From NCBI GenBank assembly GCA_038087875.1, contig CM075995.1, positions 8,372,001 to 8,436,000 of the forward strand: a stretch of 64,000 nt of DNA, read 5' to 3'. Numbering within the stretch: position 1 is the stretch's first letter; each line of letters starts with the position of its first letter. Shown one piece after another: positions 9,765 to 64,000 of the stretch. A program made the position numbers and the translations under genes. The DNA is from Malacoraja senta (taxonomy: Eukaryota). The notes below the pieces were generated by a model. It was given only the letters and a program-made list of their open reading frames with translations, made no database searches and was not told the DNA's origin.

Positions 9765-9774
9765 GTAAGTCCAA

Positions 9775-9860
9775 TGGTGGGGGTTTGAGCGGGTCTGGTG
9801 GGGTTTTGAGCGGGTCTGGTGGGGTTTTGAGCGGGTCTGGTGGGGGTTTGAGCAGGTCTG
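9775..9860 (+). repeat. 21-bp minisatellite, 4 copies (ggtggggg/ttttgagcgggtct)
   Basis: Four tandem units starting 10 nt after a DNAJC13 donor. Confidence 0.85.
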
Positions 9861-10913: not shown

Positions 10914-11164
10914 AGAGTCGGGGGAGAGGGTAACGAGAGATACAGACGGTGATGTGGAGAGATATAGAACAAATGAATGAAAGATATGCAAAGAAGTAAC
11001 GATGATCAAGGAAACAGGCCATTGTTAGCAGTGGGCTCGAAAACCAGTTACAGACAATGAGACTCAACAGACGGACTTTCAAGCTGGTACGAGGGTGGGG
11101 GAGGGAGGAGAGAGAGGGGATGCAAAGTTTACCGCTGGGTGGGCGGGCCGGGAGCGTTTTGATA

Positions 11165-11300
11165 GACACAGAGTGCTGGAGTAACTCAGCGGGTCAGGCA
11201 GCATCTGTGGAGAACATGGATAGGTGACGTTTCACAGAGTGCTGGAGTAACTCAGCGGGTCAGGCAGCATCTGTGGAGAACATGGATAGGTGACGTTTCG
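11165..11300 (-). repeat. Two-copy array of the 66-bp unit joined to a degenerate PLE terminal repeat
   Basis: Same unit, followed by gacgtttcgggtggagagcgttcttca. Confidence 0.88.
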
Positions 11301-11443
11301 GGTGGAGAGCGTTCTTCACACAGAGACTCGGGGGAAGGGAAGTCAATATTCATCCCGCTGGGTGGGTCAGGTGGGTTTTGTGTGGTAAATTGAAGGCAAC
11401 ATTTAAGCCGGGAATGATTGTAATGGGTTGTTTATCCACACAG

Positions 11444-11623
11444 GGTGAAACGTTAGAGCTGGTGACCACGGCCTCCGTCTGCCTGTTCCACTCACAGCCC
11501 CAGTTGGCAGACAAGTGCCACCCCCTGGGGCACCTTCCCAAAGTCATTACCGCTCTGAACCACCAGAATAACGCCATCCCCAAGTCTTCAATCCGCCTCA
11601 TTCACGCGCTCTCCGACAACGAG
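11444..11623 (+). CDS. DNAJC13: DNAJC13 exon, [23 protein letters not shown]...[34 protein letters not shown]
   Basis: cag acceptor and gtaaag donor, 180 nt; strong similarity; ADKCHPL versus expected ADQVPPL suggests compensating -1/+1 indels. Confidence 0.95.
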
Positions 11624-18612: not shown

Positions 18613-20008
18613 TCTTTCTCCCTCCTAACCCCATTCTCCTGCCTTATCTACTGTAGATAGGCACATGGATATGCAGGGAATGGATCACAGTGCAGGCAGA
18701 GGAGATTAGTTTAACTTGGCATCATGTTTGGCACAGACATTCTGGGCCGAAGGGCCTGTTCCTGGGCTTTAGAGACCTAGTGCAAAAATAGCCCCAAGTT
18801 CATCGCAACCAGCGATCACGCCGTCCACTAACGTTATCCTACACACCAGGGACAATTTACAATTTTTCCCAAAAGCTAATAAACCTACAAACCCGCACTT
18901 CTTGCTATTGAGGGAGTGCAGCGTAGGTTCACCAGGTTAATTCCCGGGAAGGCGGGACTGACGTATGAGAAAGAATGGAGCGGCTGGGCTTGTATTCACT
19001 GGAATTTAGAAGGATGAGAGGGGATCTTATGGAAACATATAAAATTCTTACGGGATTGGACGCTTGATGCAGGAAAACTGTTCCCGATGTTGGGGGAGTC
19101 CAGAACCAGGGGGTCACAGTTTAAGAATAAGGGGTAGGCCATTTAGGACTGGGATGAGGAAAAACCTTTTCACCCAGAGTTGTGAATCTATGGAATTCTC
19201 TACCACAAAAGGCAGTGGAGGCCGATTCACTGGATGTTTTCAAGAGAGAGTTGGCTCAAGGGATATGGGGAGAAAGCAGGAACGGGGGTACTGATTTAGG
19301 ACGATCAGCCATGATCATATCGAATGGCGGTGCTGGCTCGAAGGTTCGAACGGCCTACTCCTGCACCTATTTTCTATGTTGTTTGGGACTTGGAGGAAAC
19401 CGGAGCACCCAGAGAAAACCCACGTGGTCACAGGGAAAACATACAAACTCTGTACAGGCAGCACCCTCGGTCAGGGTGGAACCCGGGCCTCTGCCGCTGT
19501 GAGGCAGCAACTCTACCAGCTGCACCACTGTACTAAGCAGCAGGCTACATGGTTTAGGTTGGTTTAAATGTTTCCATCGCTTTGAATGCATACATTTCTG
19601 GCAATGCCTTTGACATTTTCACTATTTTCTAAGGAAGGTCAACATTTGCAGCTTGGCACGGTTTGGACAACTGGCATTGTTTACACACACAGTCATCTGG
19701 AAAATGGTCACAATCGAATTTGTTTCGTAGAGTGAGAGCGTGGAAACAGGCCCTTCAGCCCAACTCGCCCACACCGGCCAACATGTCCCATCTACACTAG
19801 TCCCACCTGCCTGCGCTTGGTCCATATCCCTCCAAACTTGTCCTATCCTTGTACCTGTCCAAATGTTTCCTCAACGTTGGGACAGTCCAGCCTCAACTAC
19901 CTCCTCTGGCAGCTCGTTCCATACACCCGCCACCCTCTGTGTGATAAAGTTACCCCTCGGATTCCTATTAAATCTTTTTCCCCTTCACCTTGAACCTATG
20001 TCCTCTTG

Positions 20009-20441
20009 GTAGACAAAAGTGCTGGAGAAACTCAGCGGGGTGCAGCAGCATCTATGGAGCGAAGGAATTAGGCAACGTTTCGGGCCGAAACCCTTCTTCA
20101 GACTGATGGAGGGTGGGGGGGCGGGGAGAAGAAAGGAAAAAGGAAGAGGAGGACCCCGAGGGCTAAGGAGAGCTGAGAAGGGGAGGAGACAGCAAGGGCT
20201 ACCGGAAATTGGAGAGGTCAATGTTTATGCCGCTAGGGTGCAGACTGCCCAAACGGAATATGAGGTGCTGCTCCTCCAATTTCCGGTGGTGCTCACTCTG
20301 GCCATGGAGGAGGCCCAGGACAGAAAGGTCGGATTCGGAATGGGAGGGGGAGTTGAAGTGATGAGCCACCGGGAGGTCAGGTTGGTTAATGCGGACCGAG
20401 CGGAGGTGTCCGGTGGAAACGATCGCCAAACCTACGCTTGG
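20009..20441 (-). mobile_element. Penelope-like element 3' fragment (GIY-YIG C-terminus, terminal repeat with hammerhead motif)
   Basis: HLRSVRINQPDLPVAHHFNSPSH...LEEQHLIFRLGSLHPSGINID; CTGAAGA...GAAACGTT motif at about 20074-20101. Confidence 0.88.
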
Positions 20442-20581
20442 TGCTCTGGCCCTCAATTCCCCTACCCTGGGCAAGAGACTCTGTGCGTCTACCCAATCTA
20501 TTCCTCTCCTGATTTTGTACACCTCTATAAGAACACCCCCCTCCTCATCCTCCTCACTATTTAAACACAATTTTTCTTCAG

Positions 20582-20681
20582 GTGAATGAAATCCTGAGTC
20601 GTTCATCTGTGTGGAGTGCCTTTAAAGACCAGAAGCATGATCTATTCATTTCTGAGTCGCAAACGTCAGGATATCTTACAG
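20582..20681 (+). CDS. DNAJC13: DNAJC13 penultimate exon, [33 protein letters not shown](G)
   Basis: ttcttcag acceptor and gtgagt donor; near-identical to recalled vertebrate sequence; ends in phase 1. Confidence 0.96.
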
Positions 20682-20756: not shown

Positions 20757-21132
20757 CACAGAGTGCTGGAGTAACTCAGCGGGTCAGGCAGCATCTGTGA
20801 GAACATGGATAGGTGACGTTTCACAGAGTGCTGGAGTAACTCAGCGGGTCAGCAGCATCTGTGGAGAACATGGATAGGTGACGTTTCACAGAGTGCTGGA
20901 GTAACTCAGCGGGTCAGGCAGCATCTGTGGAGAACATGGATAGATGACGTTTCACAGAGTGCTGGAGTAACTCAGCGGGTCAGGCAGCATCTGTGGAGAA
21001 CATGGATAGTGACGTTTCACAGAGTGCTGGAGTAACTCAGCGGGTCAGGCAGCATCTGTGGGGAACATGGATAGGTGACGTTTCACAGAGTGCTGGAGTA
21101 ACTCAGCGGGTCAGGCAGCATCTGTGGAGAAC
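20757..21132 (-). repeat. Tandem array of about 5.7 copies of the same 66-bp unit
   Basis: cacagagtgctggagtaactcagcgggtcaggcagcatctgtggagaacatggataggtgacgttt repeated. Confidence 0.93.
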
Positions 21133-21589
21133 ACGGACTCTCAGTCTGAAGAAGGGTCTCGACCGAAACGTCACCCATTCCTTTGTCCAGAGATGCTGCC
21201 CGTCCCGCTGAGTGACTCCAGCATTTGTGTCTCACCTTTACACTGTTTATTCTATTGCTACTAAAAACTCTTTGAGTTGTTTAAAGATTAACAGTAACTC
21301 GAAATAACTTGTGCTTTGCTGCTTAATGTTCCAGCCTGCAAGAAGAGCGTGATGCTTGTCTCTCTGCTTGCTCCTGTCACTTTCTGTCTATCTCTTTCTC
21401 TCTTTCCCTAGGTGCCCTCACCTTCCCTCCTTACTGGCACTAGTCCTCTCCACCTGAGAAGTGGCTTTAGGGCTGCTTTGACAGGCTCAATGTTCAATTC
21501 TTAACTGTGCAGCAAGGTAGATACCACCTTCCTCATGCTTGTTTTGGTCTTTGCTCATGCAGTTGTGGTCACGGTATTGTGGGTTCAGT

Positions 21590-22698: not shown

Positions 22699-25600
22699 TG
22701 TCCGAGGTGCTTTGTATAAAGAAATACATGTGCAGGCAGCCAAAACTCATAGCAAACGCAGCAGACATATTGTGGGCATTCACTTCATCCCTGCCGCCTC
22801 TGAAGCATTTTTAACCGAAAAACGTTGTTGCACAAATTATATGTACTTGTCCGAGACCCCCCCCCAAACCCGAATGAACTATTTCCAAATATAATCCATA
22901 TCTAGACTTCCCGGGTGGGAGATTTTTGTTAGAGCAGAGGGTACAGCTTTAAGCTGAGAAGGCCACAGTTGAAGGGAGTTGTGTGGGGCCAGGTATTTAC
23001 TTTTAAGGTGGGTGGGTGGTGGGCGCCTGGAACGCGCTGCCAGGGGTGGTGGCGGAGTTAGATACGATAGTGGCGTTTAGAAGGCGCCTGGGTTTGCACC
23101 TGCAGGGGTAGGGATCGCGTGCCGGCAGATCAGTGTTGGTTTGAGCATCATGTGCAGCACACAGACGCTGTGGGCCGAAGGGCCTCAGCCTGAGCTGTCC
23201 TGTTCCATATATACCCTTCTCCAGATCACATGAGGTGCTTGTACAGTCGGCCCAAAATCGCTGCAAATCCAAACCTTTTTTGCGTGGATTCACTGCGTTA
23301 CTGCCTTATGCGGCAGAGGGGCTGGATGGGCCTCAGTGTGTGGCGTTTTGGGATTGATAATTTGGATATAGGCTGAAAAGACCTCGGATCCAAAAGTCCC
23401 GTACTGGCGGGGAAATGAAAAGGAACATGTGATAATACACAATAGACAATAGGTGCAGGAGTAGGCCATTCGGCCCTTCGACCCAGCACCACCATTCAAT
23501 GTGATATGGCTGATCATCCCCAATCAGTACCCCGTTCCTGCCTTCTCCCCATATCCCCTGACTCCGCTATCTTTAAGAGCCCTATCTAGCTCTCTCTTGA
23601 AAGCATCCAGAGAACCGGCCTCCACCGCCCTCTGAGGCAGAGAATTCCACAGACTCACCACTCTCTGTGAGAAAAAGTGTTTCCTCGTCTCCGTTCTAAA
23701 TGGCTTACTCCTTATTCTTAAACTGTGTCCCCTGGTTCTGGACTCCCCCAACATCGAGAACATGTTTCCTGCCTCTAGCGTGTCCAAACCCTCAACAATC
23801 TTATATGTTTCAATGAGATCCCTCTCATCCTTCTAAACCCCAGAGTGTAAAAGACCAGCTGCTCCATTCTCTCAGCATATGACAGTCCCGCCATCCCGGG
23901 AATTAACCTTGTAAACCTACGCTGCGCTCCCTCAATAGCAATCGTGGCACTAAGGAGACTTCTCGATGGGCACATGGGCATGGAGGGATATGGAGCACAC
24001 ACACACACACAGGCAGAGGAGATCAGCATAGCTAGGCCTCATACACAGCACAAACATTGTGAGCCATTCTTTGCAGCGCTGTACGGTTGTATGTGTGTTT
24101 TGTAAGTGAAGTCCAAATGTCCTTTGAACTTTTGTATCTTGTACTTGTCAATCTGGTGTCGGGGGGTTACGGGGAGAAGGCAGGAGAATGGGGTTAGGAG
24201 GGAGAGATAGATCAACCGTGATTGAATGGCGGAGTAGGCTCGATGGGCCGAATGGCCTAATTCTGCCACCTATCATATACCTAACATGCCACCTAACATA
24301 TAGGATTGTTAAGGGCTTGGACACGCCAGAGGCAGGAAACATGTTCCCGATGTTGGGGGAGTCCAGAACCAGGGGCCACACAGTTTAAGAATAAGGAGTA
24401 AGCCATTTAGAACGGAGACGAGGAAACACTTTTTCTCACAGAGAGTGGTGAGTCTGTGGAATTCTCTGCCTCAGAGGGCGGAGGAGGTAGGTTCTCTGGA
24501 TGCTTTCAAGAGAGAGCTAGATAGGGCTCTTAAAGATAGCGGAGTCAGGGGATATGGGGAGAAGGCAGGAACGGGGTACTGATTGGGGATGATCAGCCAT
24601 GATCACATTGAATGTCGGTGCTGGCTCGAAGGCCGAATGGCCTACTCCTGCACCTATTGTCTGTTGTCTATCACTTACGACCTTGTATTGGAGGCTAAGC
24701 GATGGATATTTTTAAGGTGGAGATTGACATAAAGTTAGATAGAGCTCTTATTATGGCTAGCTCTTTTTGGTTAGTACGGGTGTCGGGGGGTTATGGGACG
24801 AAGGTGGAGAATGGGGGTTGAGAGGAAAGATAGGTTGGAAACTGAAGAGCAACATTTTCACACAGAGGGTGGCGGGTGTATGGAACGCCTAGCCAGAGGA
24901 TGGTAGACACAAAATGCTGGATCAACTCAGCGGGCGAGGCAGCATCTATGGTCTCGACCCAAAACGTCGCCAATTCCTTCTCTCCATAGATGCTGCCTCG
25001 CCCGCTGAGTTTCTCCAGCATTTTGTGTCTTACATAGAAACATAGAAAATAGGTGCAGGAGGAGGCCATTCGGCCCTTCGAGCCAGCACCGCCATTCATT
25101 GCGATCATGGCTGATTGTCCCCTATCAATAACCCGTGCCTGCCTTCTCCCCATATCCCTTGACTCCACTAGCCCCTAGAGCTCTATCTAACTCTCTCTTA
25201 AATCCATCCAGTGATTTGGCCTCCACTGCTCTTCTGTGGCAGGGAATTCCACAAATTCACAACTCTCTGGGTGAAAAAGTGTTTTTACTCACTTCAGTCT
25301 AAAATGGCCTCCCCTTTATTCTAAGATTACCTTCGATTTTACCAGCATCTGCATTTCTGTCTTATAGACCTGTCCCACAGTTCATTCCAAGAGCCCTCCC
25401 GAGTTTGCCCTGATTCGAACTCGGAGATTTACGGTAATGGCCACTCGTCGGTACTCGGGGCTCTCGTGGACATTTTTTCAACACGTTGAAAAATCTTCAC
25501 GAGTCTTCCCGTGCTTACCTGCCGTTAGCGAGTCTTCCCGAGTACCTGCCGTTAGCGTTACGAGCCGTCCCCGAGCTCCGACGTACCCGCTACGTTCATT

Positions 25601-25792
25601 CTCCGTGCTTACCACGAGTTTGATTTTTTAAAAACTCGGGAGAGCACTTGGAATGAACTCGCACCGTGGGACAGGGGCTATAAGACAGAAATGCAGATGC
25701 TGGTAAAGTCGAGGATAATCTTAGAATAAAGGGGAGGCCATTTAAGACTGAGGTGAGAAAAAAAATATCGTAAGACACTTGGATAGGTACAC

Positions 25793-25992
25793 NNNNNNNN
25801 NNNNNNNNNNNNNNNNNNNNNNNNNNNNNNNNNNNNNNNNNNNNNNNNNNNNNNNNNNNNNNNNNNNNNNNNNNNNNNNNNNNNNNNNNNNNNNNNNNNN
25901 NNNNNNNNNNNNNNNNNNNNNNNNNNNNNNNNNNNNNNNNNNNNNNNNNNNNNNNNNNNNNNNNNNNNNNNNNNNNNNNNNNNNNNNNNNNN
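25793..25992. other. Assembly gap (200 N)
   Basis: Run of N. Confidence 1.
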
Positions 25993-34038: not shown

Positions 34039-35044
34039 CTGGAACACAGAGGCACAGCCATATTACATCAAAGCCAGCCACAAAATCAATGGGAGTTTTA
34101 CAGCGGTGCCATAGTCGAGTTGACCTTGCGTCCAGTTTAGATTATTGTCACGTGTACCGAGGGACAGTGAAAAACCTTTGTCGCCTGATAGCAGAAAGAC
34201 ATTGGTAGACAAAAAAAAACAATGCTGGAGAAACTCAGCGGGTGAGGCAGCATCTACGGAGAGAAGGAATAGGCGACGTTTCGACCCGAGACGTCGCCTA
34301 TTCCTTCTCTCCATAGATGCTGCCTCACCTGAAAAAGGTTAACTTATAACTAAACAAACAGGTTCACTTCTTAATAAACAGACAACTCACAATACGGTTT
34401 GGTAGACCAGTTCAATGCTTTACTAACTGCAAGGAGAATCCCAGCCAAGTGAGCAACACGGACACTTCTCTGAACACAGAATTACGTGGTATTTTATACT
34501 GTCACCTAAGCACATTCCAAAGACTTGAGTCATGGTCAGAGGTACAGTGAATACACGTTACTACAGGATGCGTCTGAGTTTGTCTCTTGTCAATCATCAG
34601 TCGCATCAAAAGGCATCCTGTCATTTGGTACAAGGCAGTTGCATATCAACAGCATCGGACATTGGTCTCAATAGCCCTTACTGGGATTAATCTGCTGGAA
34701 TGGCGGAGTAGACTTGATGGGCCGAATGGCCTAACTCTGCTTGTACCACTCGCGACCCATCACACAATGCGCTTTATTTCCAACAACAAACAATAGCGTC
34801 TAGAAGGCGTATGTAGGTTAATTGGCTTGATAAATTGTCCAGTATAAAATGATCCAACTTCCAGTATAGTCGCTCGTGAATACTTCGCAAGGTACAAGAT
34901 ACAAGGCAGAATGTCCTATTCCTGATGCCGCTCCTTCAGACTGAGCTGTTCACCTCACAATGAACACTACCGCTGATCCGATGCCATGACCGACGTCACA
35001 TTGGAAAGCAGGAGAAGCAGCAGGTCTTGTCGCCTGATAGCGGA

Positions 35045-38961: not shown

Positions 38962-39995
38962 TTAGTATTTTGTTGCATATCCTGTGCATGCAATGACTGC
39001 TTGAAGTCTGCGATTCATGGACATCACCAGTTGCTGGGTGTCTTCTCTGGTGATGCTCTGCCAGGCCTGTATTGCAGCCATCTTTAGCTTATGCTTGTTT
39101 GGGGGGCTAGTCCCCTTCAGTTTTCTCTTCAGCATATAAAAGCCATGCTCAATTGGGTTCAGATCGGGTGATTGACTTGGCCACTCAAGAATTGAGCATT
39201 TTTTAGCTTTGAAAAACTCCTTTGTTGCTTTAGCAGTAAGTTTGGGATCATTGTCTTGCTGTAGAATGAACCGCCGGCCAATGAGTTTTGAGGCATTTGT
39301 TTGAACTTGAGCAGATAGGATGTGTCTATACACTTCAGAATTCATTATGTTACTACCATCAGCAGTTGTATCATCAATGAAGATAAGTGAGCCAGTACCT
39401 TCAGCAGCCATACATGCCCAGGCCATGACACCCCCACCACCGTGTTTCACAGATGAGGTGGTATGCTTTGGACCTTGTGCAGTTCCTTCTCTCCTCCATA
39501 CTTTGCTCTTGCCATCACTCTGATATAAGTTAATCTTCGTCTCATCTGTCCACAAGACCTTTTTCCAGAACAGTGGTTGCTCTTTCAACTACTTCTTGGC
39601 AAACTGTAACCTGGCCATCCTATTTTTGCGGCCAACCAGTGGTTTGCATCTTGCAGTGTAGCCGCTGTATTTCTGTTCATGAAGTCTTCTGCGGACATTG
39701 GTCATTGACAAATCCACACCTGACTCCTGAAGAGTGTTTTTGATCTGTCGGACAGGTGTTTGGGGATTTTTCTTTATTAGAGAGAATTCTTCTGTCATCA
39801 GCTGTGGAGGTCTTCCTTGGCCTGCCAGTCCCTTTGCGATTAGTAAGCTCACCAGTGCTCTCTTTCTCCTTAATGATGTTCCAAACAGTTGATTTTGGTT
39901 AGCCTAAGGTTTGACTGATGTCTCTAACAGTTTTATTCTTGTTTCTGTCTCATAATGGCTTCTTTGACTTTCATTGGCACAACTTTGGTCCTCAT
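38962..39995 (-). pseudogene. Disrupted Tc1 transposase (DD34E)
   Basis: WTDETK, QQDNDPK and SPDLNPIE motifs, 34 residues between the second D and the E; stop at 39589-39591 and frameshifts in the N-terminal part. Confidence 0.9.
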
Positions 39996-41893: not shown

Positions 41894-42058
41894 CTGTATA
41901 AACCTGGACTCGGCTCTGCATGCCCTCCAAGTAGGATCGATGCAGGACCCACTTGCCAGCCGCCATAGAAGCCAAATACTTCTCGTTGCGCAGTGGCTGC
42001 CCTACGATGATGTGCGTACACGAAGCATCGAAGCATTGTCTATCCAGCACCACGCCAC
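41894..42058 (-). CDS. TOPBP1: TOPBP1 exon (BRCT7), [54 protein letters not shown] (+1 near 41924)
   Basis: cag acceptor and gtgac donor; [23 protein letters not shown] is characteristic. Confidence 0.95.
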
Positions 42059-42806
42059 CTGAAACAAGCACACAACGGTCTTTAGCCTTGACAGATACAG
42101 CGTGCAAGCAGGCCTACGCCAGTCGGCCAGCCTTCACCACGTACACTAACACTATCCGACACACTGTGGGATAATTTTAGAGAAGTCAATTAACCTACAA
42201 GCCTGCGCGTCTTTGGAATGTGGGGAGGAAACCGGAGCACCCGGAGAAAACCCACTGGGTTCAACACCCAAGTTCGAACGGCGGGATTGAAACCAGGTGT
42301 CGTAAGGCAGCAACTCTACCGCTGGTGCCACCCCTTCTAGTATTTGATCACCTACCCTGGCCAAAGGACTCTGTGCATTCACATTATCTATTCCCCTCAT
42401 GAATTTGTACCCTGTAGCGCGACGATAAGCCCGAAACGAGAGGCGAGGAGCCGGTGGTTTCGAGAGGTATTTTATTCGCTGGTCGTTCTCTTGGACCAGA
42501 CGGGTCTGCAAGAGAGCGGTCGCTCCTAAAACCCACTTGCCCTTTATCCCTGTAGCTAAGGGCCGCCCCCGGACTAGTCATTCCCGTGCCGAGGGGTTCG
42601 ATAGAGGAATAGCCCGACCCCTTGGGAGTCGCCACAACGCCTCTATTAGATCACCCCAATCATCCTCCTGCGCTCCAAGGAATAGAAACGCAGCCTGCTC
42701 AACCTCTCCCTGTAGCTCAGGCCCCTCGAGTCCGGGCAACATCCTGGTAAATCTTCTCTGCACCTTTTCCATGTTGCACAAGTTGGAGGATAGACAGCGT
42801 ACGTAC

Positions 42807-42916: not shown

Positions 42917-43422
42917 CTGGAGGGGGTTTCATCAAAGACACTGTCAATTCTCTGGCCTCAGAGGGCGGTGGAGGCAGGTTCTCTGGATGCTTTCAAGAGA
43001 GAGCTAGATAGGGCTCTTAAACACAGTGGAGTCAGGGGATATGGGGAGAAGGGCAGGAACGGGGTACTGATTGGGGATGATCAGCCATGGTCACATTGAA
43101 TGGCGGTGCTGGCTCGAAGGGCCAAATGGCCTACTCCTGCACCTGTTGTCTATTGTCTAATTCCACTGTAGACACAAGGAACTGCAGATGCTGGATAACA
43201 CACAAAGTGCTGGAGCACAAGAGGTCCTGACCTCCATCCTACCTCAAACTACCTTCAATCCAGACTTTACCTCGCACTAAACGTTATTCCCTTTATCCTG
43301 TATCTGTACACTGTGGACGGCTCAATTGTAATCATGTATTGTCTTCCACTTGACAGGATAGCACGCAACAAAAAAGCTTTTCACTGTGTCACGGTATAAG
43401 TGACGATAAACTAAATCAAACT

Positions 43423-43718
43423 ACTCAGCGGGTCAGGCAGCATCTGTGGAGAACATGGAATAGGTGACGTTTCAGAGATTGGAGTAACTCAGCGGGTCAG
43501 GCAGCATCTGTGGAGAACATGGATAGGTGACGTTTCACAGAGTGCTGGAGTAACTCAGCAGGTCAGGCAGCATCTGTGGAGAGACATGGATAGGTGGACG
43601 TTTCACAGAATGCTGGAGTAACTCAGCGGGTCAGGCAGCATCTGTGGAGAACATGGATAGGTGACGTTTTCACAGAGTGCCTCGGAGTAACTCAGCGGGT
43701 CAGGCAGCATCTCTGGAG
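43423..43718 (-). repeat. Tandem array of about 4.5 copies of the 66-bp unit
   Basis: Same unit with small indels. Confidence 0.9.
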
Positions 43719-45224
43719 AAAAGAGGTAATCTTTCAGGGAGAAAAGATGGAATAGAGAAAAGGTGAAAGGCGGAGAAAAGGTGTAATATATATATATGTA
43801 ATTTTCCGTTTCAGGTCGAGACCCTTCTTCAGACTCAGAGTCAGGGGAGAGGGAAACGAGAGGTATGCAAAGATACAAAGAGCAAATGAAACGTATGAAA
43901 AGAACAAATCAAGGGCAGCCAGGATGATCAAGGAAAGGTGGAGCCCACAATGGTCTATTGTTGGCTGTGGTATGCTTACTTCATTGGAGACCCGTGGACA
44001 ATTTTTAATCGGACGTTATTTTGCACTAAACGTTATACCCTGTATCCATACACTGTGGACGCCTTGATCGTAATTACGTATATAGTCTTTTTGCTGACTG
44101 GGACAGCATGTGACAGAAAGCTTTTCACTGTACCTCAGTACACGTGACAATAAACTGAACTAAACTCAGTGTGATCGTCTCGTTGGTTAAGATTTTAAAA
44201 TATCAGGAATCTATTCAGATCTATCTTCTTCCGCTCAGGCGATTTGTATGAACATCATGGTTAATCTTCCTGTGTTTAGACTTTTAGAGATACGGTGCAG
44301 AAAAAGGTACCAAATCCGTGCCGACCAGCGATCACTCCTCTATCCGAGCTACTTCTGCCAGCACCATCATCTATTGCGACAAGTGACGGCTCCCACTGAT
44401 TGTCGCCAGGAAGCTTGGTGTCCTTTTCAGGATGGACGATGACAGCGATGTCCAACATTTGAAACATGGAAGATGGACATGAAAGAAGAAGACTTCTCTA
44501 TGTCCACCCCAGTGACATTCTCCCAAACACACCAGGGACGATTTACAATTTTTACCAAATCTAATTACCCTACAAATCTGCATCTTTTATGCACACGTAT
44601 TCCGATAAGGCTGTATTTCATTTAACATCTAGTTAGTTTAAGTTTGGAGATACAGCGCGGATACAGGCCCTTTGGCCCATCAAGTCTGTGCCGACCCGCG
44701 ATCACCCTGTACACTATCACTATCCTACACACACTGGGGACAATTTACAATTTTCACCAAAGCCAACAACGTACAAACCTGTACGTCTTTGGGAGGAAAA
44801 CCGGAGCATCCGGAGAAAACCCACGCGGGTCACAGGGAGAACGAACAAACTCTGTACAGACAGCACCCGTCTAGTCAGGATTGAACCTGGGTCTCTGGCG
44901 CTGTGAGGCAGCAACTCTACCGCTATAAACTAAACTGAACTCTATTGCTATTATTGTCGAGTGTTTTCACAGGTTGTAGGGAGCAGGATTTGGCCATTCG
45001 GCCCATCAAGTCTACTCCCCCAGTCAATCCTGGGCCGATCTTTATTCCTTGACCCTATTCTCTTGCCCTCCTCTGCCATAACCCCTCCTCTCCCCATTTA
45101 AGGCCAAGGTGGAAGAGCCGTGTGGTGGTGAGTGTTTGTGCGGGACTAGTTACGACGGACTGGGGTGAAGTGGTGAACGTTGAGGAATTGAGCGGCGGTG
45201 AGCCAGGGTTTGAAGGCTGCTCAC

Positions 45225-50484: not shown

Positions 50485-50807
50485 TAGCCCTGTCCCACGG
50501 TACGAGTTCATTCCAAGAACTCTCCCGAGTTTGCCCTGATTCAAGATTTACGGTAATGGCCGCTCGTCGGTACTCGGGGCCCTCGTGGACATTTTTCAAC
50601 ATGTTGAATAATCTTCACGAGTCTTCCCGAGCTTACTTGCCGTTAGCGAGTCTTCCCGAGTACCTGCCGTTACCGTTACGAGCCGCTAAGAGACGTCCCC
50701 GAGCTCCGACGTACCCGCTACGTTCATTCTCCGTGCTTACCACAAGTTTGATTTTTTTTTAAACTAGGGTGAGCTCTTGGAATGAACTCGTACCGTGGGA
50801 CAGGGGT
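50485..50807. mobile_element. Harbinger-like MITE (CTGTCCCAC family); related copies at about 13455-13720, 25367-25680, 37536-37826, 58845-59046 and 9998-10539
   Basis: gccctgtcccacggtacgagttcattccaag ... cttggaatgaactcgtaccgtgggacaggg inverted ends. Confidence 0.65.
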
Positions 50808-51367
50808 TTTAGTGTGCGCAGACTTGGTGGGCCGAAGGGCCTGCTTCAGCGCCAAAATCTTTAAACTAAACAATCAGAGTAATTAACAGCCATTTTGGAG
50901 GCATCCGAGCCATCTGTTGCCCTTGTTCTTCAAGCTAACAGTGGTCATGTACAGGGGAGGTGCCGCTTTAAAAGGTTCTGAACTTTGTGGTGTCACAGTG
51001 GCAGAGTTGCTGCCTTACAGCACCAGAAACCTGGCTTCCGTCCTGTTTACGGGTCAAAGAGAGTCCTAGATAGAACAATACTCACAAGATCAACACAAAA
51101 AGCTGGAGTAACTCAGCGGGACAGGCAGCAGTTCTGGAGAGAAGGAATGGGTGACGTTTTGGGTCGAGGCACTTCAGTCTGAAGAAGGGCCTCGACCTGA
51201 AACGTCACCCATTCCTTCTCTCCAGAAATGCTGCCAGTCCCGTTGAGTTACTCCAGCATTTTGTGTCAATCTTCAGTGTAGACCAACATCTGCAGTTCCT
51301 TCCTACACAATATACACACACACACGAAAACAAACAATAATGCAAAAAGGTAAAAACCAATGCCTCT

Positions 51368-51403: not shown

Positions 51404-52125
51404 ATTCCTTCTCTCCATAGATGCTGCCTCATCCGCTGAGTTTCTCCAGCAATTTTGTCTATGTAGTTTGGAGCTCATTTGGAGGCAGCCTGATGGCTGC
51501 AGAGAAGAAGCTGTTCCTGAACCTGGACGTTACAGTTCTCAGGCTCCTGTACCTTCTTCCTGATGGCAGAGGTGAGATAAGTGTGTGGCCAGGATGGTGT
51601 GGGTCTCTGATGGTGCTGGCTGCTGCCTGCAAATCCCTTCGACGGTGGGGAAGTCAGTACCCACGATGGACTGGGCAGTGATGTCTGTACGGAGTTTGTA
51701 CGTTCTCCCTGTGACCGCGTGGGTTTTCTCCGCCATCTTGTGCAGCGTGACATTCCACCGACTGTCACAACTGTACCCTTGGACCCAAAGTGCTGGAGTA
51801 ACAAGCACGGAGGAAGCAATCGAAGGAAAAATTGATTAGTTTGGAGTACCGCGTGCAGTTCTGGTCAACCCATTACAGGAAGGGTGTGAAGGCTTTGGTG
51901 AGGTTGGAGAAGAGGTTTATCAAAAAATACTGCCTAGATTAGAGGGTTTCATCTACAGCGAGTTTAGATAGCCTTGGATCGTTTTCTCTGGAGGGTCGGA
52001 GTGGAGGTGATGGAAGTGTATAAAATATCGAGAGGCATAGATAGGGTAGGCAGTCAGAATCGTTTTACCCCCAGGTGCAAATGCCAAAGACAAGAGGGCA
52101 TAGCCAATAAGTGATGTGGAGAAAG

Positions 52126-52685
52126 TTACTCCAGCACTCTGTGAAACGTCACCTATCCATGTTCTCCACAGATGCTGCCTGACCGACCCGCTGAGTTACT
52201 CCAGCACTCTGTGAAACGTCACCTATCCATGTTCTCCACAGATGCTGCCTGACCCGCTGAGTTACTCCAGCACTCTGTGAAACGTCACCTATCCATGTTC
52301 TCCACAGATGCTGCCTGACCCGCTGAGTTACTCCAGCACTCTGTGAAACGTCACCTATCCATGTTCTCCACAGATGCTGCCTGACCCGCTCAGTTACTCC
52401 AGCACTCTGTGAAACGTCACCTATCCATGTTCTCCACAGATGCTGCCTGACCCGCTCAGTTACTCCAGCACTCTGTGAAACGTCACCTATCCATGTTCTC
52501 CACAGATGCTGCCTGACCCGCTCAGTTACTCCAGCACTCTGTGAAACGTCACCTATCCATGTTCTCCACAGATGCTGCCTGACCGACCCGCTGAGTTACT
52601 CCAGCACTCTGTGAAACGTCACCTATCCATGTTCTCCACAGATGCTGCCTGACCGACCCGCTGAGTTACTCCAGCACTCTGTGTC
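52126..52685 (+). repeat. Tandem array of about 8.3 copies of a 66-bp PLE-terminus unit
   Basis: GAAACGTC starts at 52143, 52213, 52279, 52345, 52411, 52477, 52543 and 52613; period 66, or 70 with a gacc duplication. Confidence 0.95.
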
Positions 52686-52749
52686 TTTTTTCCCCAGATG
52701 GTATCAAACAATGAAAGTGAAACTGGATAATAATTAAGTCTCACTTTAC

Positions 52750-53807: not shown

Positions 53808-54065
53808 GTCATCTATCCATGTTCTCCACAGATGCTGCCTGACCCGCTGAGTTTCTCCAGCACTCTGTGAAACGTCACCTATCCATGTTCTCCACAGATG
53901 CTGCCTGACCCGCTGAGTTACTCCAGCACTGTTAAACGTCACCTATCCATGTTCTCCACAGATGCTGCCTGACCCGCTGAGTTACTCCAGCACTCTCTTA
54001 AACGTCACCTATCCATGTTCTCCACAGATGCTGCCTGACCCGATGAATTACTCCAGCACTCTGTG
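53808..54065 (+). repeat. Tandem array of about 4 copies of the 66-bp unit
   Basis: Same unit in the opposite orientation to the 20757 array. Confidence 0.9.
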
Positions 54066-54400
54066 CCTTATTTATTTTGCAAACCAGCATCTGCAGTTCC
54101 TTATTCCCAATCAATACTCATACTGATGAAGGCTAATGTGCCCTATCTACCTTTCGAGGAACTATATACCTGCAATTGTAGATCCCTCTGCTCTGCAACA
54201 CTCCCCAGAGGCCGACCATTCACTGCGTAGGTCCTGCCCATGTTAGACTTCCCAAAATTCGACAACTCTCATTTCTCTGTATTAAATACCATCAACATTT
54301 CCTCCGCCCACCTGCCCGACCGATGGAGATCCTGCTGCAATTTTTCACAACCATCTTCCAACGTCTGCAATGCCACCCACCGCTAGTGTTCAGGGCCTTA

Positions 54401-55096
54401 AGGGCCTGTCCCACTTACGTGTCCTTGGCACGCAAATTACGCGACCTCGTGGTCGCGTTGAGCCGCGACGGTCCCGAGAAGGTCGCACGCAATTAAATTG
54501 CTTACGCACAGCCGTCTGGATCGCGTAACGTCATTTGAAATTGGACACAAAGCAGGAGTAACTCAGCGGGACCGGCAGCATCTCTGGAGAGAAGGAATGG
54601 ATGATGCTTCGGGTCGAGACCCTTCTTCAGTCTGAAAAGAAGGGTCTTGACCCGAAACGTCATCCATTGCTTCTCTCCAGAGATGCTGCCGGTCCCGCTG
54701 AGTTACTCCAGCATTTTGTGTCTATCTTCAATTTTCTTGGCCCCGCTCTGGGAGTAGAAGTGGGGGCGGATCCGGACCGCAACGGCCGTGAGCCCCAGGC
54801 CGAGTTCGGCGATCGTTTGCCTGCTTCTGCTGCTGTTGGAGGTGAGACGTTGCGTCGCGCCAGGGCCTTGGGCCTGTCCCACTTTGGCCGTCAGTTACGC
54901 GACAGGCCATTGGCACGCAAAGATTCCGTTTGCTACAAAAATTTCGGAGCCCCACGCGATGTCGCGCACAACTCCATACCCCTCCGCGCTTCTCAGTGGG
55001 ACCGGCCCCGCGTGGCCATACGATGCCCGTGTGCCTCAACGCGACCACGAGGTCGCGTAATTTGCGTGCCAAGGACACGTAAGTGGGACAGGGCCT
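54401..55096. mobile_element. PIF/Harbinger-like MITE with long inverted repeats and a nested PLE hairpin
   Basis: Inverted repeats of about 60 bp starting agg(g/c)cctgtcccactt; TTA on both flanks. Confidence 0.7.
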
Positions 55097-55325: not shown

Positions 55326-57187
55326 CTGCATCAAAGAATTTCACACAGTGCAATAATTAACAACGTGTTCATGAAACACAAAAGGTGCAGCTAGGAAAAC
55401 ATATTCAACTCGTTATACTTCAATTAAAGTAAATATCGGCACTAAGTAGGTTATGAGAACAAAGTCCTGCACACAGTCTATATAGATAGACTTTAGCAAG
55501 GCAGCATCTCCGGAGAGAAGGAATGGGCGACGTTTCAGTCTGAAGTAGGGTCTCGACCCAAAATGTCACCCATTCCTTCTCTCCAGAGATGCTGCCTCAC
55601 CCGCTGAGTAACTCCAGCATTTTGTGTCTACCTTCGATTTAAACCAGCATCTGCAGTTCTTTCTTACACATCTTAGACTTTAGCAAGGCATTTGGTTTCC
55701 TTATGTTTGGTTCACTGGAGTTTAGAAGGATGAGGGGGTGTCTTATAGAAATATATACAATTATAAAAGAACTGGACAAGCTAGATGCAGGAAAAATGTT
55801 CCCAATGTTGGGCGAGTCCAGAACCAGGGGCCACACTTAGAATAAAGGGGAGGCCATTTAAGACTGAGGTGAGAAAAAACCTTTTCACCCAGAGTTGTGA
55901 ATTTGTGGAATTCCCTGCCACAGAGGGCAGTGGAGGCCAAATCACTGGATGGATTTAAGAGAGAGTTAGATAGAGCTCTAGGGGCTAGTGGAGTCAAGGG
56001 ATATGGGGAGAAGGCAGGCACGGGTTATTGATAGGGGACGATCAGCCATGATCGCAATGAATGGCGGTGCTGGCTCGAAGGGCCGAATGGCCTCCTCCTG
56101 CACCTATTTTCTATGTTTCTATGTGTAGGAAGGAACTGCAGATGCTGGAGTAACTCAGCGAACAGGCAGCATCTCTGGAGAGAAGGAATGGGAGACGATT
56201 CGGTTCTGAAAAAGGGCCTTGACCCAAAAAGCCACCCATTGCTTCTGTCCAGAGATGTTGCCTGTCCCGCTGAGTTACTCCAGCATCTTGTGTCTATTTT
56301 GTTTAGTTATTTGGGTGAGAACATACAGGGCAAGATTAGCAAGTTTGCAGAAGATACAAAAGTGGGCGGGTTTGCAGACAGTGAAGATGGTTGAGAAAAA
56401 TTGCAGCAGGAACTTGATCGATTGGCCAGGTGGGCTGAGGAATGGTTGGTGGAATTTAATGCAGAGAAGTGTGAGGTGTTGCAATTTGGGACGTCGAACA
56501 AGGGCAGGACCTACACAGTGAATGGTAGGCCTCTGGAGAGTGTTCTAGAGCAGAGGGATCTGGGAGTCCAGGTGCATGGTTCCTTGAAGATCGAGTCGCA
56601 GGTAGATAAGGTGGTCAAAAAGGCATTTGGCACATTGGCCTTCATCAGTCGGAGTATTGAGTATAGAGGTTAGGAGGTCATGTTGCAGTTGCATAAGACG
56701 TTGGTGAGGCCACATTGTGTTCAGTTCTGGGCACCATGTTTTTGGGACGATGTTGCCAAGCTTGAAAGGGTTCAGAAAAGATTGACAAGGATGCTGCCAG
56801 AGCTAGAGGGTGTGAGCTATAGGTAGAGGTTGAGTAGGCTGGGACTCTATTCCTTGGAGCGCAGGAGGATGAGGAGTGATCTTATAGAGGTGTATAAGAT
56901 CATGAGCGGAATAGATCGGGTAGATGCAGAGTCTCTTGCCCAGAGTAGGGAAATCGAGGACCAGAGGACACAGGTTTAAGGTGAAGGGGAGAACAAATGT
57001 AATAGGAATCTCCATACAACAGCACCTGGATGGATCCCGGGTCTCCGGTGCTGTAAGGCAGCAATTGTACCGCTGCGTCACCGTGTCACCCTTTTGATAA
57101 GGATCTGCATGGTAGGCTGCTGTGGAAGGGTAGATCGTATGGCATCCAGAGATAGCTAGCCGACTGGATAGAGAATTGGCTTCATGT

Positions 57188-57996
57188 CACTCAGCGGGTC
57201 AGGCAGCATCTCTGGAGAACATGGATAGGTGACGTTTCACAGAGTGCTGGAGTAACTCAGCGGGTCAGGCAGCATCTCTGGAGAACATGGATAGGTGACG
57301 TTTCACAGAGTGCTGGAGTAACTCAGCGGGTCAGGCAGCACTAGAACTAGGGGACATAGTTGTAGAATAAGGGGGGGGCTCTTTTAAAACTGAGATGAGG
57401 AAGAACTTCTTCACCCAGAGGGTGGTTAATTTATGGAATTCACTGCCCCAGGGAGCAGTGGAAGCAGAAACATTAAATATATTTAAGTCTAAAATAGATG
57501 GTTTTTTAGCTGCCAAGGGGATAAGGGGCTACGGGGAGAGGGCAGGGATATGGACCTAGGTAGGGTTAGTATAGTAAGACCTGAGTGATCTCCTGGACAA
57601 GTGTCGATCGCCTGGATTGGGGTCGGAGAGGAATTTCCCGGATTTTTTTCCCGAATTGGACCTGGGTTTTTATCCGTTTTTTTGCCTCCCCCAGGAGATC
57701 ACTCGGTTCTTGGGGTGGAGAGGGGTGATAGCGCTATAATGGGGAGGGTAGTGTCTTGTGTTCTGTGTCTTGTGTCTACTGTTTGTGGGTGGGGGTGTTT
57801 GTTTGTTTGGTGTTCAGCCATGAGCGAATGGCGGTGCGGGCTCGATGGACCTGGTGGTCTACTCTCGCACCTACTTTCTATGATTCTATGATTCTATGAG
57901 CATCTGTGGAGAACATGGATAGGTGACGTTTCACAGAGTGCTGGAGTAACTCAGCGGGTCAGGCAGCATCTCTAGGGAACGTGGATAGGTGACGTT
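57188..57996 (-). repeat. 66-bp unit array split by a CR1 3' insertion (about 57341-57898)
   Basis: The unit stops at ...ggcagca and resumes at agcatctgtgg after the CR1 (ATTCTATG)n tail. Confidence 0.85.
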
Positions 57997-58048
57997 CGGG
58001 TTGGGACTCTTTTTGAGCTCGTCTTCAAAAGGGAAATACTTCTCGTAC

Positions 58049-58172
58049 AGCAAAGAGCCAGTGTTCGGAGACAACGTGAACGCCCTTTTCTTTGACGGAC
58101 TTGTATTCCCGACTGGTGTCATTCTGCTTGCCCTGGTAGATGTAATGAGTCACCATCTCTTCATAACTCCAC
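58049..58172 (-). CDS. TOPBP1: TOPBP1 exon (BRCT6), [41 protein letters not shown]
   Basis: cag acceptor and gtacga donor; phase-compatible across a 106-bp intron; BRCT SEHW motif. Confidence 0.95.
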
Positions 58173-58278
58173 CTGCAAGCACAAACAATATGTTCAGCAG
58201 AAAGCCCGTTTCCACCGGCCCAGAGCCGGAAAGGAGCTGTCTAAAAAGTGGGGAAGCGTTGGAGCAATAAGCCGATAC

Positions 58279-61419: not shown

Positions 61420-62814
61420 CTGCAATGAAGAAGACGTCATTGATATCATGGATATTGATATGTCACTGTATGTCATGTTGTCACTTGCGGGCGGAGCACC
61501 AAGGCAAATGCCTTGTATGTGAATACTTGGCCAATAAACTTATTCATTCATTGATAAACAGCCGGAGGCAGATAATTAGGACGGAGTAAAGGGCATCAGA
61601 TGTACAGATCAACAGCAGAATGACCACCGACTCCACGCCGGCCATCCATCTCCCGTACACACTAGCTCCTTGTTATTCCATTCTCACATCCAGTCCCCAC
61701 ACAGCAGGAGGCAATTTTACAGAGGCCAATTCACCTACAAACCCGCACGCCTTTGCGATTGCAATCATGTATGCGATTGTAACCATGTATGGATCTTATA
61801 GAAACGTACAAAATTCTTAAGGGGTTGGACAGGCTAGATGCAGGAAGATTGTTCCCGATGTTGGGGAAGTCCAGAACAAGGGGTCACAGTTTAAGGATAA
61901 GGGGGAAGTCTTTTAGGACCGAGATGATAATTTCTTTTTTTCACACAGAGAGTGGTGAATCTGTGGAATTCTCTGCCACAGAAAGTAGTTGAGGCCAGTT
62001 CATTGGCTATATTTAAGAGGGAGTTAGATGTGGCCCTTGTGGCTAAAGGGATCGGGGGTATGGAGAGATACTGAGTTGGATGATCAGCCATGATCTTATT
62101 GAATGGCGGTGCAGGCTCGAAGGGCCGAATGGCCTACTCCTCCACCTATTTTCTATGTTTCTATGTATGGTCCTACTGCTGAATGGATTAGCACGCAACA
62201 AATGCTTTTCACTGTACCTCGGTACACGTGACAATAAACTAAACTGAACTGAAAACTGGAGCGCCTGGAGAAAACCCACGCAGTCACAGGGAGAACGTCC
62301 ACAAAGCCAGCACCCGTGGTCAGGCTGGAACCTGGGTGTCTATCAGCTACTGCCCGATTCCCTATTGTGGACATTGGACTTTGTCCCTGGATCTGATGCG
62401 CTTGGGGGAGGGACTTGAACTTTATTTCGCCTTCCACCACAGTGAGGAGTGTGTAGGAGTCACTGTGGTGGATGTTCATGTTGAAATGTGTTTTGGATTG
62501 TTCTGTTTCCAAGATGGCCGCCGGAAGTGAGAGTGACCGTTGGCGGGACTAGCTGCTGCCGCTGCTCTCTCTTCGAATTGTGTATCGTTGCTGTTACCGA
62601 CCACTTCTTGTTCTGTTTCATTTTGTTTATATGTTTGTAATTTGCTTGTTTTAATCTGTAAGGTGTCCTTGGCAGTCCTGAAAGGCGCCCATAAATAAAA
62701 TGTATTATTATTATTATTATTATTACAATGCTGTGAACTATATTCAGCACTCTGTACCTTCCCCTTTGCTCTTACCTTGCCCACACCGGCCAACACACGT
62801 CCCAGCTACAGCAG

Positions 62815-63385
62815 GTAGACACAAAATGCTCAACGGGACAGGCAGCATCTTTGGAGAGAAGGAATGGGCGACGTTTCGGGTCGAGACACTTCTTCAGACT
62901 GATTTCAGGGGAGTGGGCGGGACACGAAAAGAATATAGTTGGAGACAGTAAGACTGGTGGGAGAACTAGGAAGGAGGAGAGGGTGGAGAGAGAGAGAGGG
63001 AAAGCAAGGGCTGTTTGAGAAGTCATCGTTCATACCACTGGGGTGTGAGCTACCCAAGCAAAATATGAGGTGCTGTCCCTCCAATTTGCGCTGGGCCTCA
63101 CTCTGACAATGGAGGAGGCCCAGGACAGAAAGGTCAGATTGGGAATGGGAGGGGGAGTTGAAGTGCTGAGCCACCGGGAGATCAGGTAGGTCAAGGCGGA
63201 CTGAGCGGAGGTGTTCAGTGAAACGATCACCGAGCCTGCGCTTGGTCTCGCCCCCAATGTACAGGAGTTGACACCTGGAACAGCAGATGAGGTTGCAAGT
63301 GAACCTCCGCCTCTCCTGAAAAGATTGTCGGGGTCCTTGGATTGAGTCGAGGGGGAAGATAAAGGGACAGGTTTTGCATCTCCTG
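62815..63385 (-). mobile_element. Penelope-like element 3' fragment (GIY-YIG and terminal repeat)
   Basis: CSRCQLLYIG..ETKRRLGDRF.EHL and AQHFNSPSHSQSDLSVLGL; terminal repeat with a degenerate hammerhead motif. Confidence 0.87.
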
Positions 63386-63389
63386 CTAC

Positions 63390-64000
63390 ACTAGTCCCAC
63401 CTGCCTGCGTTTGGCCCATATCCCTCCAAACCTGTCCTATCCATGTATCTATCAAACTGTTTCTTAAACGATGGGATAGTCCCAGCCTCAACTACTTCCT
63501 CAGGCAGTTTGTTCCATACACCCACCACCCTTTGTGTGAAAACGTTACCTCTCAGATTCCTGTTAAGTCTTTTCCCCTTCACCTTAAACCCATGTCCTCT
63601 GGTCCTCGATTCACCTACTCTGGGCAAGAGACTTTGTGCATCTACCCGATCTATTCCTCTCATGATTTTATACACCTCTTTAAGATCACCCATCATCCTC
63701 CTGCGATCCAAGGAATAGAGACCCAGCCTGCTCAACCTCTCCCTATAGCTCACACCCTCTAGTCCTGGCAACATCCTCGTAAACCTTCTCTGAAACCTTT
63801 CAAGCTTGACAATATCTTTCCTATAACATGGTGCCCGGAACTGAACACAATATTCTAAATGCGGTCTCACCAACGTCTTATACAACTGCAACATGACCTC
63901 CCAACTTCTATACTCAATACTCTGACTGATGAAGGCCAATGTCCCAAAGCCTTTTTGACCACCTTATCTACCTGCGACTCGACCTTCAAGGAACCATGCA
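63390..64000 (-). mobile_element. CR1/HER1 LINE 3' part of the subfamily whose tail is shared with the HE1 SINE
   Basis: ORF 63391-63939 with RPHLEYCVQF; tail continues at about 62780 beyond the PLE insertion. Confidence 0.88.

What the first reader, a model, noticed from the sequence alone, without database searches (positions are those of the whole stretch)
52126..52685. Dispersed 66-bp tandem arrays built from the Penelope terminus downstream of the hammerhead
Seen: the same 66-nt unit (GAAACGTCACCTATCC...CTCCAGCACTCTGT) forms arrays of 2-8 copies at six or more loci, in both orientations (11165, 20757, 43423, 52126, 53808, 57188). Each unit runs from the hammerhead GAAAC to the PLE 3' end and omits CTGAAGA and stem II. 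Some arrays run directly into the rest of a terminal repeat (11300, 57996). Known: PLE reverse transcriptases are close relatives of telomerase reverse transcriptase, PLE termini carry hammerheads, and hammerhead-bearing tandem retrozymes exist. Inference: the arrays may come from reiterative, telomerase-like copying of a short RNA end, or from rolling-circle copying of a small circular RNA, forming a mobile minisatellite. Ordinary slippage in one founder copy that then spread is the simpler alternative.
Basis: partly seen in the sequence, partly recalled or inferred. Interest (0 to 1): 0.72.

Follow-up and report, generated by a model that had tools for sequence, protein, structure and literature searches.

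The report
Ribozyme-less Penelope-derived mobile minisatellite
A 66-base piece from the end of a Penelope-type jumping gene, minus its ribozyme, forms short tandem runs scattered through this skate-like genome; it looks like a hitch-hiking variant of known Penelope-derived repeats rather than a new telomerase-like copying process.

Summary
Six loci (not seven: 57186 and 57996 are one array split by a CR1 insertion) carry 2.0-8.5 near-identical 66-bp units joined by one fixed junction (20 matches, 0 in shuffles). The unit is the post-hammerhead part of a Penelope-like (PLE) terminal repeat, which follows GIY-YIG remnants in the window. It lacks CTGAnGA, so it is not a retrozyme. Five of six arrays end in phase in the parent's normal 3' end or tail. 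One has a 7-bp target-site-duplication-like repeat. Variants occur in blocks within arrays. The junction has 1 nt of microhomology and lies 8 nt upstream of the predicted hammerhead cleavage site. This favours one founding duplication, spread by PLE retrotransposition and local DNA turnover, over telomerase-like or rolling-circle copying of a 66-nt RNA. The unexpected part: fresh units often sit in register inside older, decayed terminal repeats, also in a Rhinoraja protein model, suggesting self-targeted insertion or ectopic conversion. The repeat is held in runs of six organism labels and is read on both strands in poly(A) RNA with no defined ends. No paper describing it was found. New variant of a known kind; interest 0.42.

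The parts
52124..52683 (+). Array A4, 8.5 units; starts mid-unit (position 48) against a CR1-like fragment with 4-nt microhomology; a 4-nt duplication in units 2, 8 and 9 and G47C in units 5-7
52684..52690 (+). In-phase short parent 3' extension of A4 (proximal end class)
11159..11306 (-). Array A1 as a 148-bp insert: two perfect units (11167-11299) plus short parent ends, flanked by a 7-bp direct repeat (11152-11158 and 11307-11313), inside older PLE-terminus DNA
20757..21137 (-). Array A2, 5.8 units; 5'-truncated and joined head-to-head to an older monomer (21135-21238, +)
43423..43723 (-). Array A3, 4.6 units; first unit has a decayed monomer-type 5' half; last unit interrupted by a LINE-like 3' piece (43215-43422)
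43163..43214 (-). 3' end and full tail of A3 (monomer-type base at unit position 63)
43807..43843 (-). Hammerhead 5' part upstream of A3, separated from it by ~85 nt
53808..54104 (+). Array A5, 3.9 units plus full tail; 5' end abuts the truncated 5' end of a CR1 3' fragment
57186..57997 (-). Array A6, about 4 units, split by a CR1 3' piece (57342-57898); first unit decayed up to position 27; 3' end out of phase (position 53)
57998..58016 (-). Decayed hammerhead core and stem II remnant, in register upstream of A6
62813..63390 (-). Parent element: GIY-YIG endonuclease remnant (62908-63390) followed by the terminal repeat with an intact minimal hammerhead core (62874-62897)
20008..20621 (-). Second parent copy: endonuclease C-terminal remnant plus terminal repeat with hammerhead core (20078-20101)
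55487..55683 (.). Head-to-head terminal-repeat pair with a 10-bp target-site duplication (a second pair at 4891-5156 has 9 bp); shows that the parent termini insert by PLE-type retrotransposition

Best explanation
A non-autonomous PLE derivative. A tandem duplication arose once in a terminal-repeat (pLTR) subfamily, joining the base of its 3' stem-loop to the GAAAC of the hammerhead. The resulting 66-bp unit keeps the 3' module that PLE reverse transcriptase is inferred to use but has lost the ribozyme core. Transcripts carrying n units plus the normal 3' end are copied by a partner PLE's RT/GIY-YIG protein, starting at the usual proximal or distal site, and are 5'-truncated at variable points or joined in register to an older pLTR. 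Some arrays therefore land in, or are recombined into, pre-existing pLTRs. Unit number then changes by DNA-level slippage or unequal exchange. Shown: PLE origin, lack of the core, one junction, in-phase parent 3' ends, variant blocks, decayed edges around fresh cores. Inferred: RT-mediated mobility, self-targeting, the single origin of the junction.
For: The parent terminus follows a GIY-YIG-type remnant: best hits are elasmobranch proteins; it is 44% identical to P0007, which passes the Pfam GIY-YIG cut-off, and hit P0010 also carries an RT domain below cut-off. Array 3' ends (3 proximal, 2 with the ~35-nt tail, of 6 arrays) mirror monomer ends (of 21 examined, 18 parsed; by eye 15 proximal, 3 with tail). 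This matches the two RT start sites and the tail of PLEs (PMC11167929). A1 has a 7-bp direct repeat (null 0.008 per pair), and two inverted monomer pairs have 9- and 10-bp duplications, like the 8-10 bp TSDs of rotifer PLEs (PMC3846280). Arrays differ from the unit by about 0-3% substitutions while 13 monomers are 76-86% identical to it, so one young unit type serves all six loci. Shared variants in neighbouring units of A4, A5 and A6 need DNA-level duplication. A PLE protein nicks DNA from its own ORF-pLTR junction and does not need hammerhead cleavage to insert in vitro.
Against: Only 1 of 6 arrays has a TSD-like repeat; it was first seen by eye and 6 arrays were tested (about 5% overall), and the other 5 show no more than 5-nt matches. 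A6 ends out of phase. The 5' ends of A4 and A5 abut CR1 pieces and may be later rearrangements rather than retrotransposition truncations. Edges more decayed than cores (A1 5/24 vs 0/133, p=6e-5; A6 8/46 vs 1/207, p=5e-6, hand counts) and mixed flank subtypes do not fit pure clonal spread from one founder. No whole genome was available, so all locus-level inference rests on six arrays.
Confidence: 0.6

Rival explanations
1. Recombinational homing. The junction spreads mainly at DNA level: a break in a resident pLTR monomer (possibly made by the PLE endonuclease) is repaired from an ectopic array, and out-of-register re-annealing, or integration of an excised circle, adds whole units inside the resident copy.
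For: A3 and A6 switch from decayed monomer sequence to near-perfect array sequence at about unit position 28, the start of the shared core; A3 ends in a monomer-type base and tail. The C-terminus of a Rhinoraja longicauda protein model reads, antisense, as monomer-type 5' half + junction + monomer-type 3' half and tail, i.e. one unit inserted in register (P0012; read from protein only).
Against: A1 has a TSD-like repeat and two fully array-type units. A2, A4 and A5 start at unrelated phases (positions 14, 48, 6) next to non-homologous or inverted DNA. Divergent edge units are also expected in any old array that homogenises internally (general knowledge).
Confidence: 0.2
2. Reiterative or rolling-circle reverse transcription. 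PLE RT goes repeatedly round a 66-nt circular or end-juxtaposed RNA, and the multimeric cDNA is joined to pLTR ends by homology.
For: One exact junction and near-identical units. The circular 66-mer folds as a rod with the two junction bases stacked at the end of the central helix (-10.7 kcal/mol; 12 of 500 shuffles as good), lower than all 13 monomer-derived circles (-8.5 to +1.3). Circular templates were proposed for PLE tandems (PMC4209133). Junction-bearing RNA exists (1,143 of 25,740 laid reads).
Against: No catalytic core in the unit, and the boundary is not the cleavage site. 5 of 6 arrays end in parent sequence absent from the circle. 1-nt microhomology. Variant blocks. The fold signal is weak: 32 of 500 with DNA parameters; the parent-like base at position 27 folds better (-11.6); the dimer is 31 of 500 under the right control. 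The RNA is on both strands (465 +, 678 -) with no pile-up of ends, though a fragmented oligo-dT library cannot show a circle.
Confidence: 0.12
3. Independent local slippage in a monomer at each locus, guided to the same junction by the 3' hairpin.
For: The hairpin base coincides with the unit's last base. Edges are monomer-like at A3 and A6.
Against: All six arrays share one unit type that matches none of the 13 window monomers (76-86%). In laid contigs about 60-68% of depth at unit position 27 has the monomer base, which interior units mostly lack. Other back-jumps are minor in the rows shown.
Confidence: 0.04
4. The fresh-core, decayed-edge contrast is an assembly or polishing artefact: array interiors were overwritten with the genome-wide consensus.
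For: Scattered 1-bp indels in A2 and A3 look like long-read errors. The assembly method is unknown.
Against: Uncorrected indels argue against consensus overwriting. Raw RNA reads and three independent contig sets hold >=99% matches (987 reads; 8,219-9,879 contigs). A4 keeps locus-level variant blocks. The same mosaic appears in P0012 from a named assembly. The arrays themselves are real on any reading.
Confidence: 0.04

Closest known systems
Non-LTR retrozymes derived from PLE pLTRs (bioRxiv 10.64898/2026.07.22.740005; PMC7229834)
   Same: Dispersed, non-coding tandem arrays of a pLTR-derived unit; most families have at most seven units; reported unit range 51-972 bp; found in a chondrichthyan.
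   Different: Retrozymes are defined by a type I hammerhead in every unit; this unit has only the 3' half of the core. That study's screen needed two units with complete hammerheads, so it would not count these arrays. Its supplements could not be seen.
Non-autonomous Chlamys PLEs such as MRC1 (PMC8557442)
   Same: Non-autonomous PLE derivatives that match the autonomous 3' end and often form multicopy head-to-tail insertions; most Chlamys lack canonical hammerheads.
   Different: Different clade (N-terminal endonuclease, green algae). Here the unit is a 66-bp sub-fragment inside the pLTR, and the parent does carry a hammerhead.
Partial-tandem, inverted and tailed termini of EN+ PLEs (PMC8557442, PMC3846280, PMC11167929)
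   Same: Minimal hammerhead, optional 30-40-nt tail, head-to-head inverted copies, 8-10 bp TSDs, 5' truncation with microhomology.
   Different: Ordinary PLE tandems vary in truncation point; these share one junction and one near-invariant unit.
Minisatellites born in retroelements: Alu-derived minisatellites, mouse B1 VNTR family, MaLR Ms6-hm (review PMC9659126); SVA VNTR (recalled)
   Same: A segment of a retroelement is tandemly amplified, dispersed with the element, and turns over locally.
   Different: The review's text has no occurrence of 'Penelope'. In-register placement inside older copies of the parent is the unusual feature here.

Membership tests
EN+ Penelope-like element terminal repeat (parent) | Terminal repeat directly follows an RT/GIY-YIG ORF | tested here: met
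   Endonuclease remnants precede the terminus at 62908-63390 and 20202-20621. The window ORFs gave no Pfam hit themselves; relatives carry GIY-YIG, one above cut-off. No PLE RT was found in the window.
EN+ Penelope-like element terminal repeat (parent) | Minimal type I hammerhead with an extra base before stem II and a palindromic position 15.2-16.2 (PMC4209133) | tested here: met
   7 copies match the full pattern; stem II has 3-4 of 4 pairs; stem I is only 2 bp in all 7. Rfam reported no hammerhead family at E<=1. Activity is untested.
EN+ Penelope-like element terminal repeat (parent) | Optional 30-40-nt tail, inverted 5' copies, TSDs | tested here: met
   Two classes of 3' end; head-to-head pairs; 9- and 10-bp TSDs in 2 of 7 monomer pairs.
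Neptune clade | RT phylogeny | not tested
   No RT in the window. Cys motifs upstream of the GIY motif resemble Neptune elements (recalled, no call).
Non-LTR retrozyme | Complete type I hammerhead in each tandem unit | tested here: not met
   0 CTGAnGA in 7 of 7 array pieces, both strands.
Non-LTR retrozyme | Tandem, non-coding, pLTR-derived units | tested here: met
Non-LTR retrozyme | Monomeric circular RNA | not testable with these tools
   Only an oligo-dT raw-read run was laid; it showed junction reads on both strands and no defined ends.
Non-autonomous PLE | Keeps the autonomous element's 3' end at its insertion boundary | tested here: met
   5 of 6 arrays.
Non-autonomous PLE | Retrotransposition footprints (TSD, 5' truncation or inversion) | tested here: inconclusive
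   7-bp repeat at A1 only, 1 of 6; inversion at A2; A4 and A5 5' junctions ambiguous.
Telomerase-like reiterative synthesis | Template flanked by a repeated alignment sequence | tested here: not met
   1 nt shared at the junction; the alignment requirement is from general knowledge.
Telomerase-like reiterative synthesis | Repeats added de novo from one template, without inherited variant blocks | tested here: not met
   Shared variants in neighbouring units of A4, A5 and A6; later turnover could mask de novo synthesis.

The most novel reading that the evidence does not exclude
A skate PLE reverse transcriptase copies a rod-folded 66-nt RNA module repeatedly (repeat-addition processivity, as in telomerase) and, guided by its own endonuclease and by homology, homes the multimer in register into existing terminal repeats. 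The result is a ribozyme-less minisatellite that parasitises the PLE's own dispersed termini.
Probability: 0.12. Interest if true: 0.85.

Novelty: new variant of a known kind. Interest (0 to 1): 0.42.

Why it matters
How PLEs make their tandem and inverted ends is still undefined (PMC8557442). This family isolates the smallest pLTR module that seems to remain mobile without the hammerhead, in agreement with in vitro data that cleavage is dispensable. It offers many natural junctions for telling retrotransposition from recombination. It is invisible to retrozyme screens that need a ribozyme in each unit. If in-register invasion of older copies holds genome-wide, it is a minisatellite that spreads through a transposon family. 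In practice it makes up 2.9% of this window and enters gene models (P0012).

Tried and rejected
No whole genome is held for this window, so no genome-wide catalogue could be made. The junction motif and a core motif found 0 loci in viral, metagenome and prokaryote genome contigs. Rfam gave only hairpin-type chance matches below gathering score and no hammerhead. Pfam did not recognise the two endonuclease remnants. The phmmer search with the unit's one open frame returned 344 proteins, 150 listed; the four I printed were leucine-rich-repeat look-alikes, and among 163 stored proteins only P0012-P0015 resembled the repeat. Accessions for P0012-P0015 could not be looked up. My idea that both array-specific bases stabilise the fold failed for position 27, and the dimer z-score of -3.6 fell to -1.7 with a repeat-preserving control. 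TSD search was negative for 5 of 6 arrays and 5 of 7 monomer pairs. Earlier scan findings: four look-ups, nothing. Ten paper searches found no description of this unit; Dfam and Repbase could not be checked.

Full report
Observation. Splitting them into units gives A1 11167-11299 (-, 2.0 units), A2 20757-21137 (-, 5.8), A3 43423-43723 (-, 4.6), A4 52124-52683 (+, 8.5), A5 53808-54065 (+, 3.9) and A6, in two pieces, 57186-57340 and 57899-57997 (-). The two A6 pieces continue each other across a ~560-bp CR1 3' fragment, so there are six loci. A 23-nt motif across the junction matches 20 times (17 exactly) and never in 100 shuffles; one search shows 24 junctions, the other four having small indels. 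Arrays cover 1,887 bp, 2.9% of the window. Substitutions against the common unit are about 0-3% per array (hand count, used).

Parent element. About two dozen non-array copies of a related terminus lie in the window. Two follow a decayed ORF end (62908-63390 and 20202-20621). Pfam did not recognise these two pieces. A search among longer proteins with the first gave 11 hits of 577 candidates, led by skate, ray and shark proteins. It aligns at 44% with P0007, which passes the GIY-YIG cut-off; P0010 has RT and GIY-YIG matches below cut-off. Seven termini match the minimal hammerhead described for PLEs, with the extra base before stem II (PMC4209133, passages); stem I is only 2 bp in all seven. 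Monomer 3' ends fall into a proximal class and a class with a ~35-nt tail (21 examined, 18 parsed, by eye 15 and 3). Two of seven head-to-head pairs have 9- and 10-bp target-site duplications. These are the PLE hallmarks given in PMC8557442 (passages), PMC3846280 (passages) and PMC11167929 (parts 1-2 of 4). That the host is a skate is inferred from the best hits; the Neptune label is recalled and untested.

The unit. It runs from the GAAAC of the hammerhead to the base of a 3' stem-loop, 4-12 nt short of the proximal end. No array contains CTGAnGA on either strand, so it cannot self-cleave. Its 5' boundary is 8 nt upstream of the predicted GUC cleavage site, so it is not a cleavage product. 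The junction shares one base between the two sides. The unit is 76-86% identical to 13 window monomers. Its direct parent subfamily is absent from the window as a monomer but present in public data: in 3 of 3 contig sets, loose ends upstream of the unit read as an intact hammerhead, and 60-68% of depth at unit position 27 shows the monomer base (depth is not copy number).

Ends. Five of six arrays run in phase from the last unit into the parent's 3' sequence: three stop at the proximal site and two carry the tail. A6 ends out of phase against a CR1 piece. The 5' ends are mixed: in register with a hammerhead remnant (A1, A6), near one (A3), or cut at unit positions 14, 48 and 6 (A2, A4, A5). 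A2 is joined head-to-head to an older monomer. A4 and A5 abut CR1 fragments with short microhomology, and their order of insertion is unresolved. A1 is flanked by a 7-bp direct repeat (null 0.008 per pair; first seen by eye; 1 of 6 arrays), and both of its flanks are PLE-terminus DNA.

Turnover. A4 has a 4-nt duplication in units 2, 8 and 9 and one substitution in units 5-7; A5 and A6 each share a variant between adjacent units. Copying from one short template would not give such blocks, so DNA-level duplication or conversion acts on the arrays, or acted on their master.

Fresh cores in old edges. A1's upstream flank differs from the monomer majority at 5 of 24 bases (eight monomers: 1-3), against 0 of 133 in its units (p=6e-5). 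A6's flank and first 27 bases differ at 8 of 46, against 1 of 207 further in, leaving subtype bases aside (p=5e-6; hand counts). A3 has a decayed first half-unit and a monomer-type last base and tail. A Rhinoraja longicauda protein model (P0012; 1 of 3 hits among 958 candidates) ends in the antisense reading of monomer-type 5' half, junction, monomer-type 3' half and tail (inferred from protein only). So the junction sits in more than one background. Self-targeted insertion fits A1, since a PLE protein nicks DNA from its own ORF-pLTR junction. Ectopic conversion fits A3, A6 and P0012. Six loci cannot rank the two.

Distribution and RNA. I laid 4 of the 23 runs on a 94-bp junction-centred stretch. 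The three contig sets gave 99,591-106,987 laid contigs each, 8,219-9,879 at 99% or better. In the oligo-dT run (about 5% read), 1,143 of 25,740 laid reads go back by exactly 66 bases, 465 with the first mate on + and 678 on -. Other back-jumps in the rows shown had at most 9 reads (147 rows not shown), and no place had a pile-up of ends. This fits passive read-through in host transcripts; TOPBP1 exons lie on the minus strand at about 41915-42080 and 58043-58177, which places A3-A6 between or beside them. It does not test for a circle.

The circle idea. The circular 66-mer folds as a rod with the junction at the end of the central helix (-10.7 kcal/mol; 12 of 500 shuffles), lower than 13 of 13 monomer-derived circles. 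The signal is weak: 32 of 500 with DNA parameters, -9.0 for the parent-like unit, and no gain from the array base at position 27. With the tail-bearing ends, the missing core and the variant blocks, I give reiterative or rolling-circle synthesis 0.12.

Comparison with what is known. It works like the PLE-derived tandem families: non-LTR retrozymes (bioRxiv 10.64898/2026.07.22.740005, parts 1-3 of 5; PMC7229834, three passages) and non-autonomous Chlamys elements with multicopy head-to-tail insertions. It is not a retrozyme, because a hammerhead in each unit is the defining feature and was tested and not met. Minisatellites born in retroelements are well known (PMC9659126, passages). Ten searches (listings only, except for the papers named) and passages of PMC2746220 showed no description of this unit. 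Repeat libraries and the preprint's supplements could not be seen and may list it.

Verdict. Real, abundant and shared among several species; a ribozyme-less PLE-derived minisatellite family with one founding junction. New variant of a known kind; interest 0.42. The open and more surprising point is the in-register placement of fresh units in older terminal repeats.

Noticed in passing
window 11300-11323 (-): All 5 differences between A1's upstream flank and the monomer majority are swaps to the complementary base (four to or from C/G, one A to T), unlike ordinary decay; one hits hammerhead core position C3.
   Followed up: partly
window 4899-5150, 24899-25032, 34205-34330, 51090-51312, 54540-54734, 55499-55670, 56120-56297: Seven short head-to-head pairs of the PLE terminus form palindromes in 64 kb; two have 9- and 10-bp TSDs. 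They give the miRNA-like Rfam chance hits.
   Followed up: partly
window 4952-5025: A different, 35-bp tandem duplication of the same terminus at the centre of an inverted pair.
   Followed up: no
window 58043-58177 (-) and about 41915-42080 (-): TOPBP1 BRCT exons; A6 begins about 30-45 nt downstream of the first exon's end, in the gene's sense.
   Followed up: yes
window 11444-11626 (+): Exon-like stretch resembling the DNAJC13/RME-8 C-terminus (recalled); no PDB or Pfam match.
   Followed up: partly
window 52149-52595 (-); P0012: The antisense strand of the unit has one open frame (22-aa repeat); an annotated Rhinoraja isoform ends in it, so arrays can enter gene models.
   Followed up: partly
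window 25500-25557 and 50618-50672: Another short tandem (27-29 bp, two copies) with the same unit at two loci.
   Followed up: no
window 38962-39588 (-): 208-aa frame resembling a Tc1-type transposase (recalled).
   Followed up: no
window, about 25700-25900: A 200-base run of N (assembly gap).
   Followed up: no
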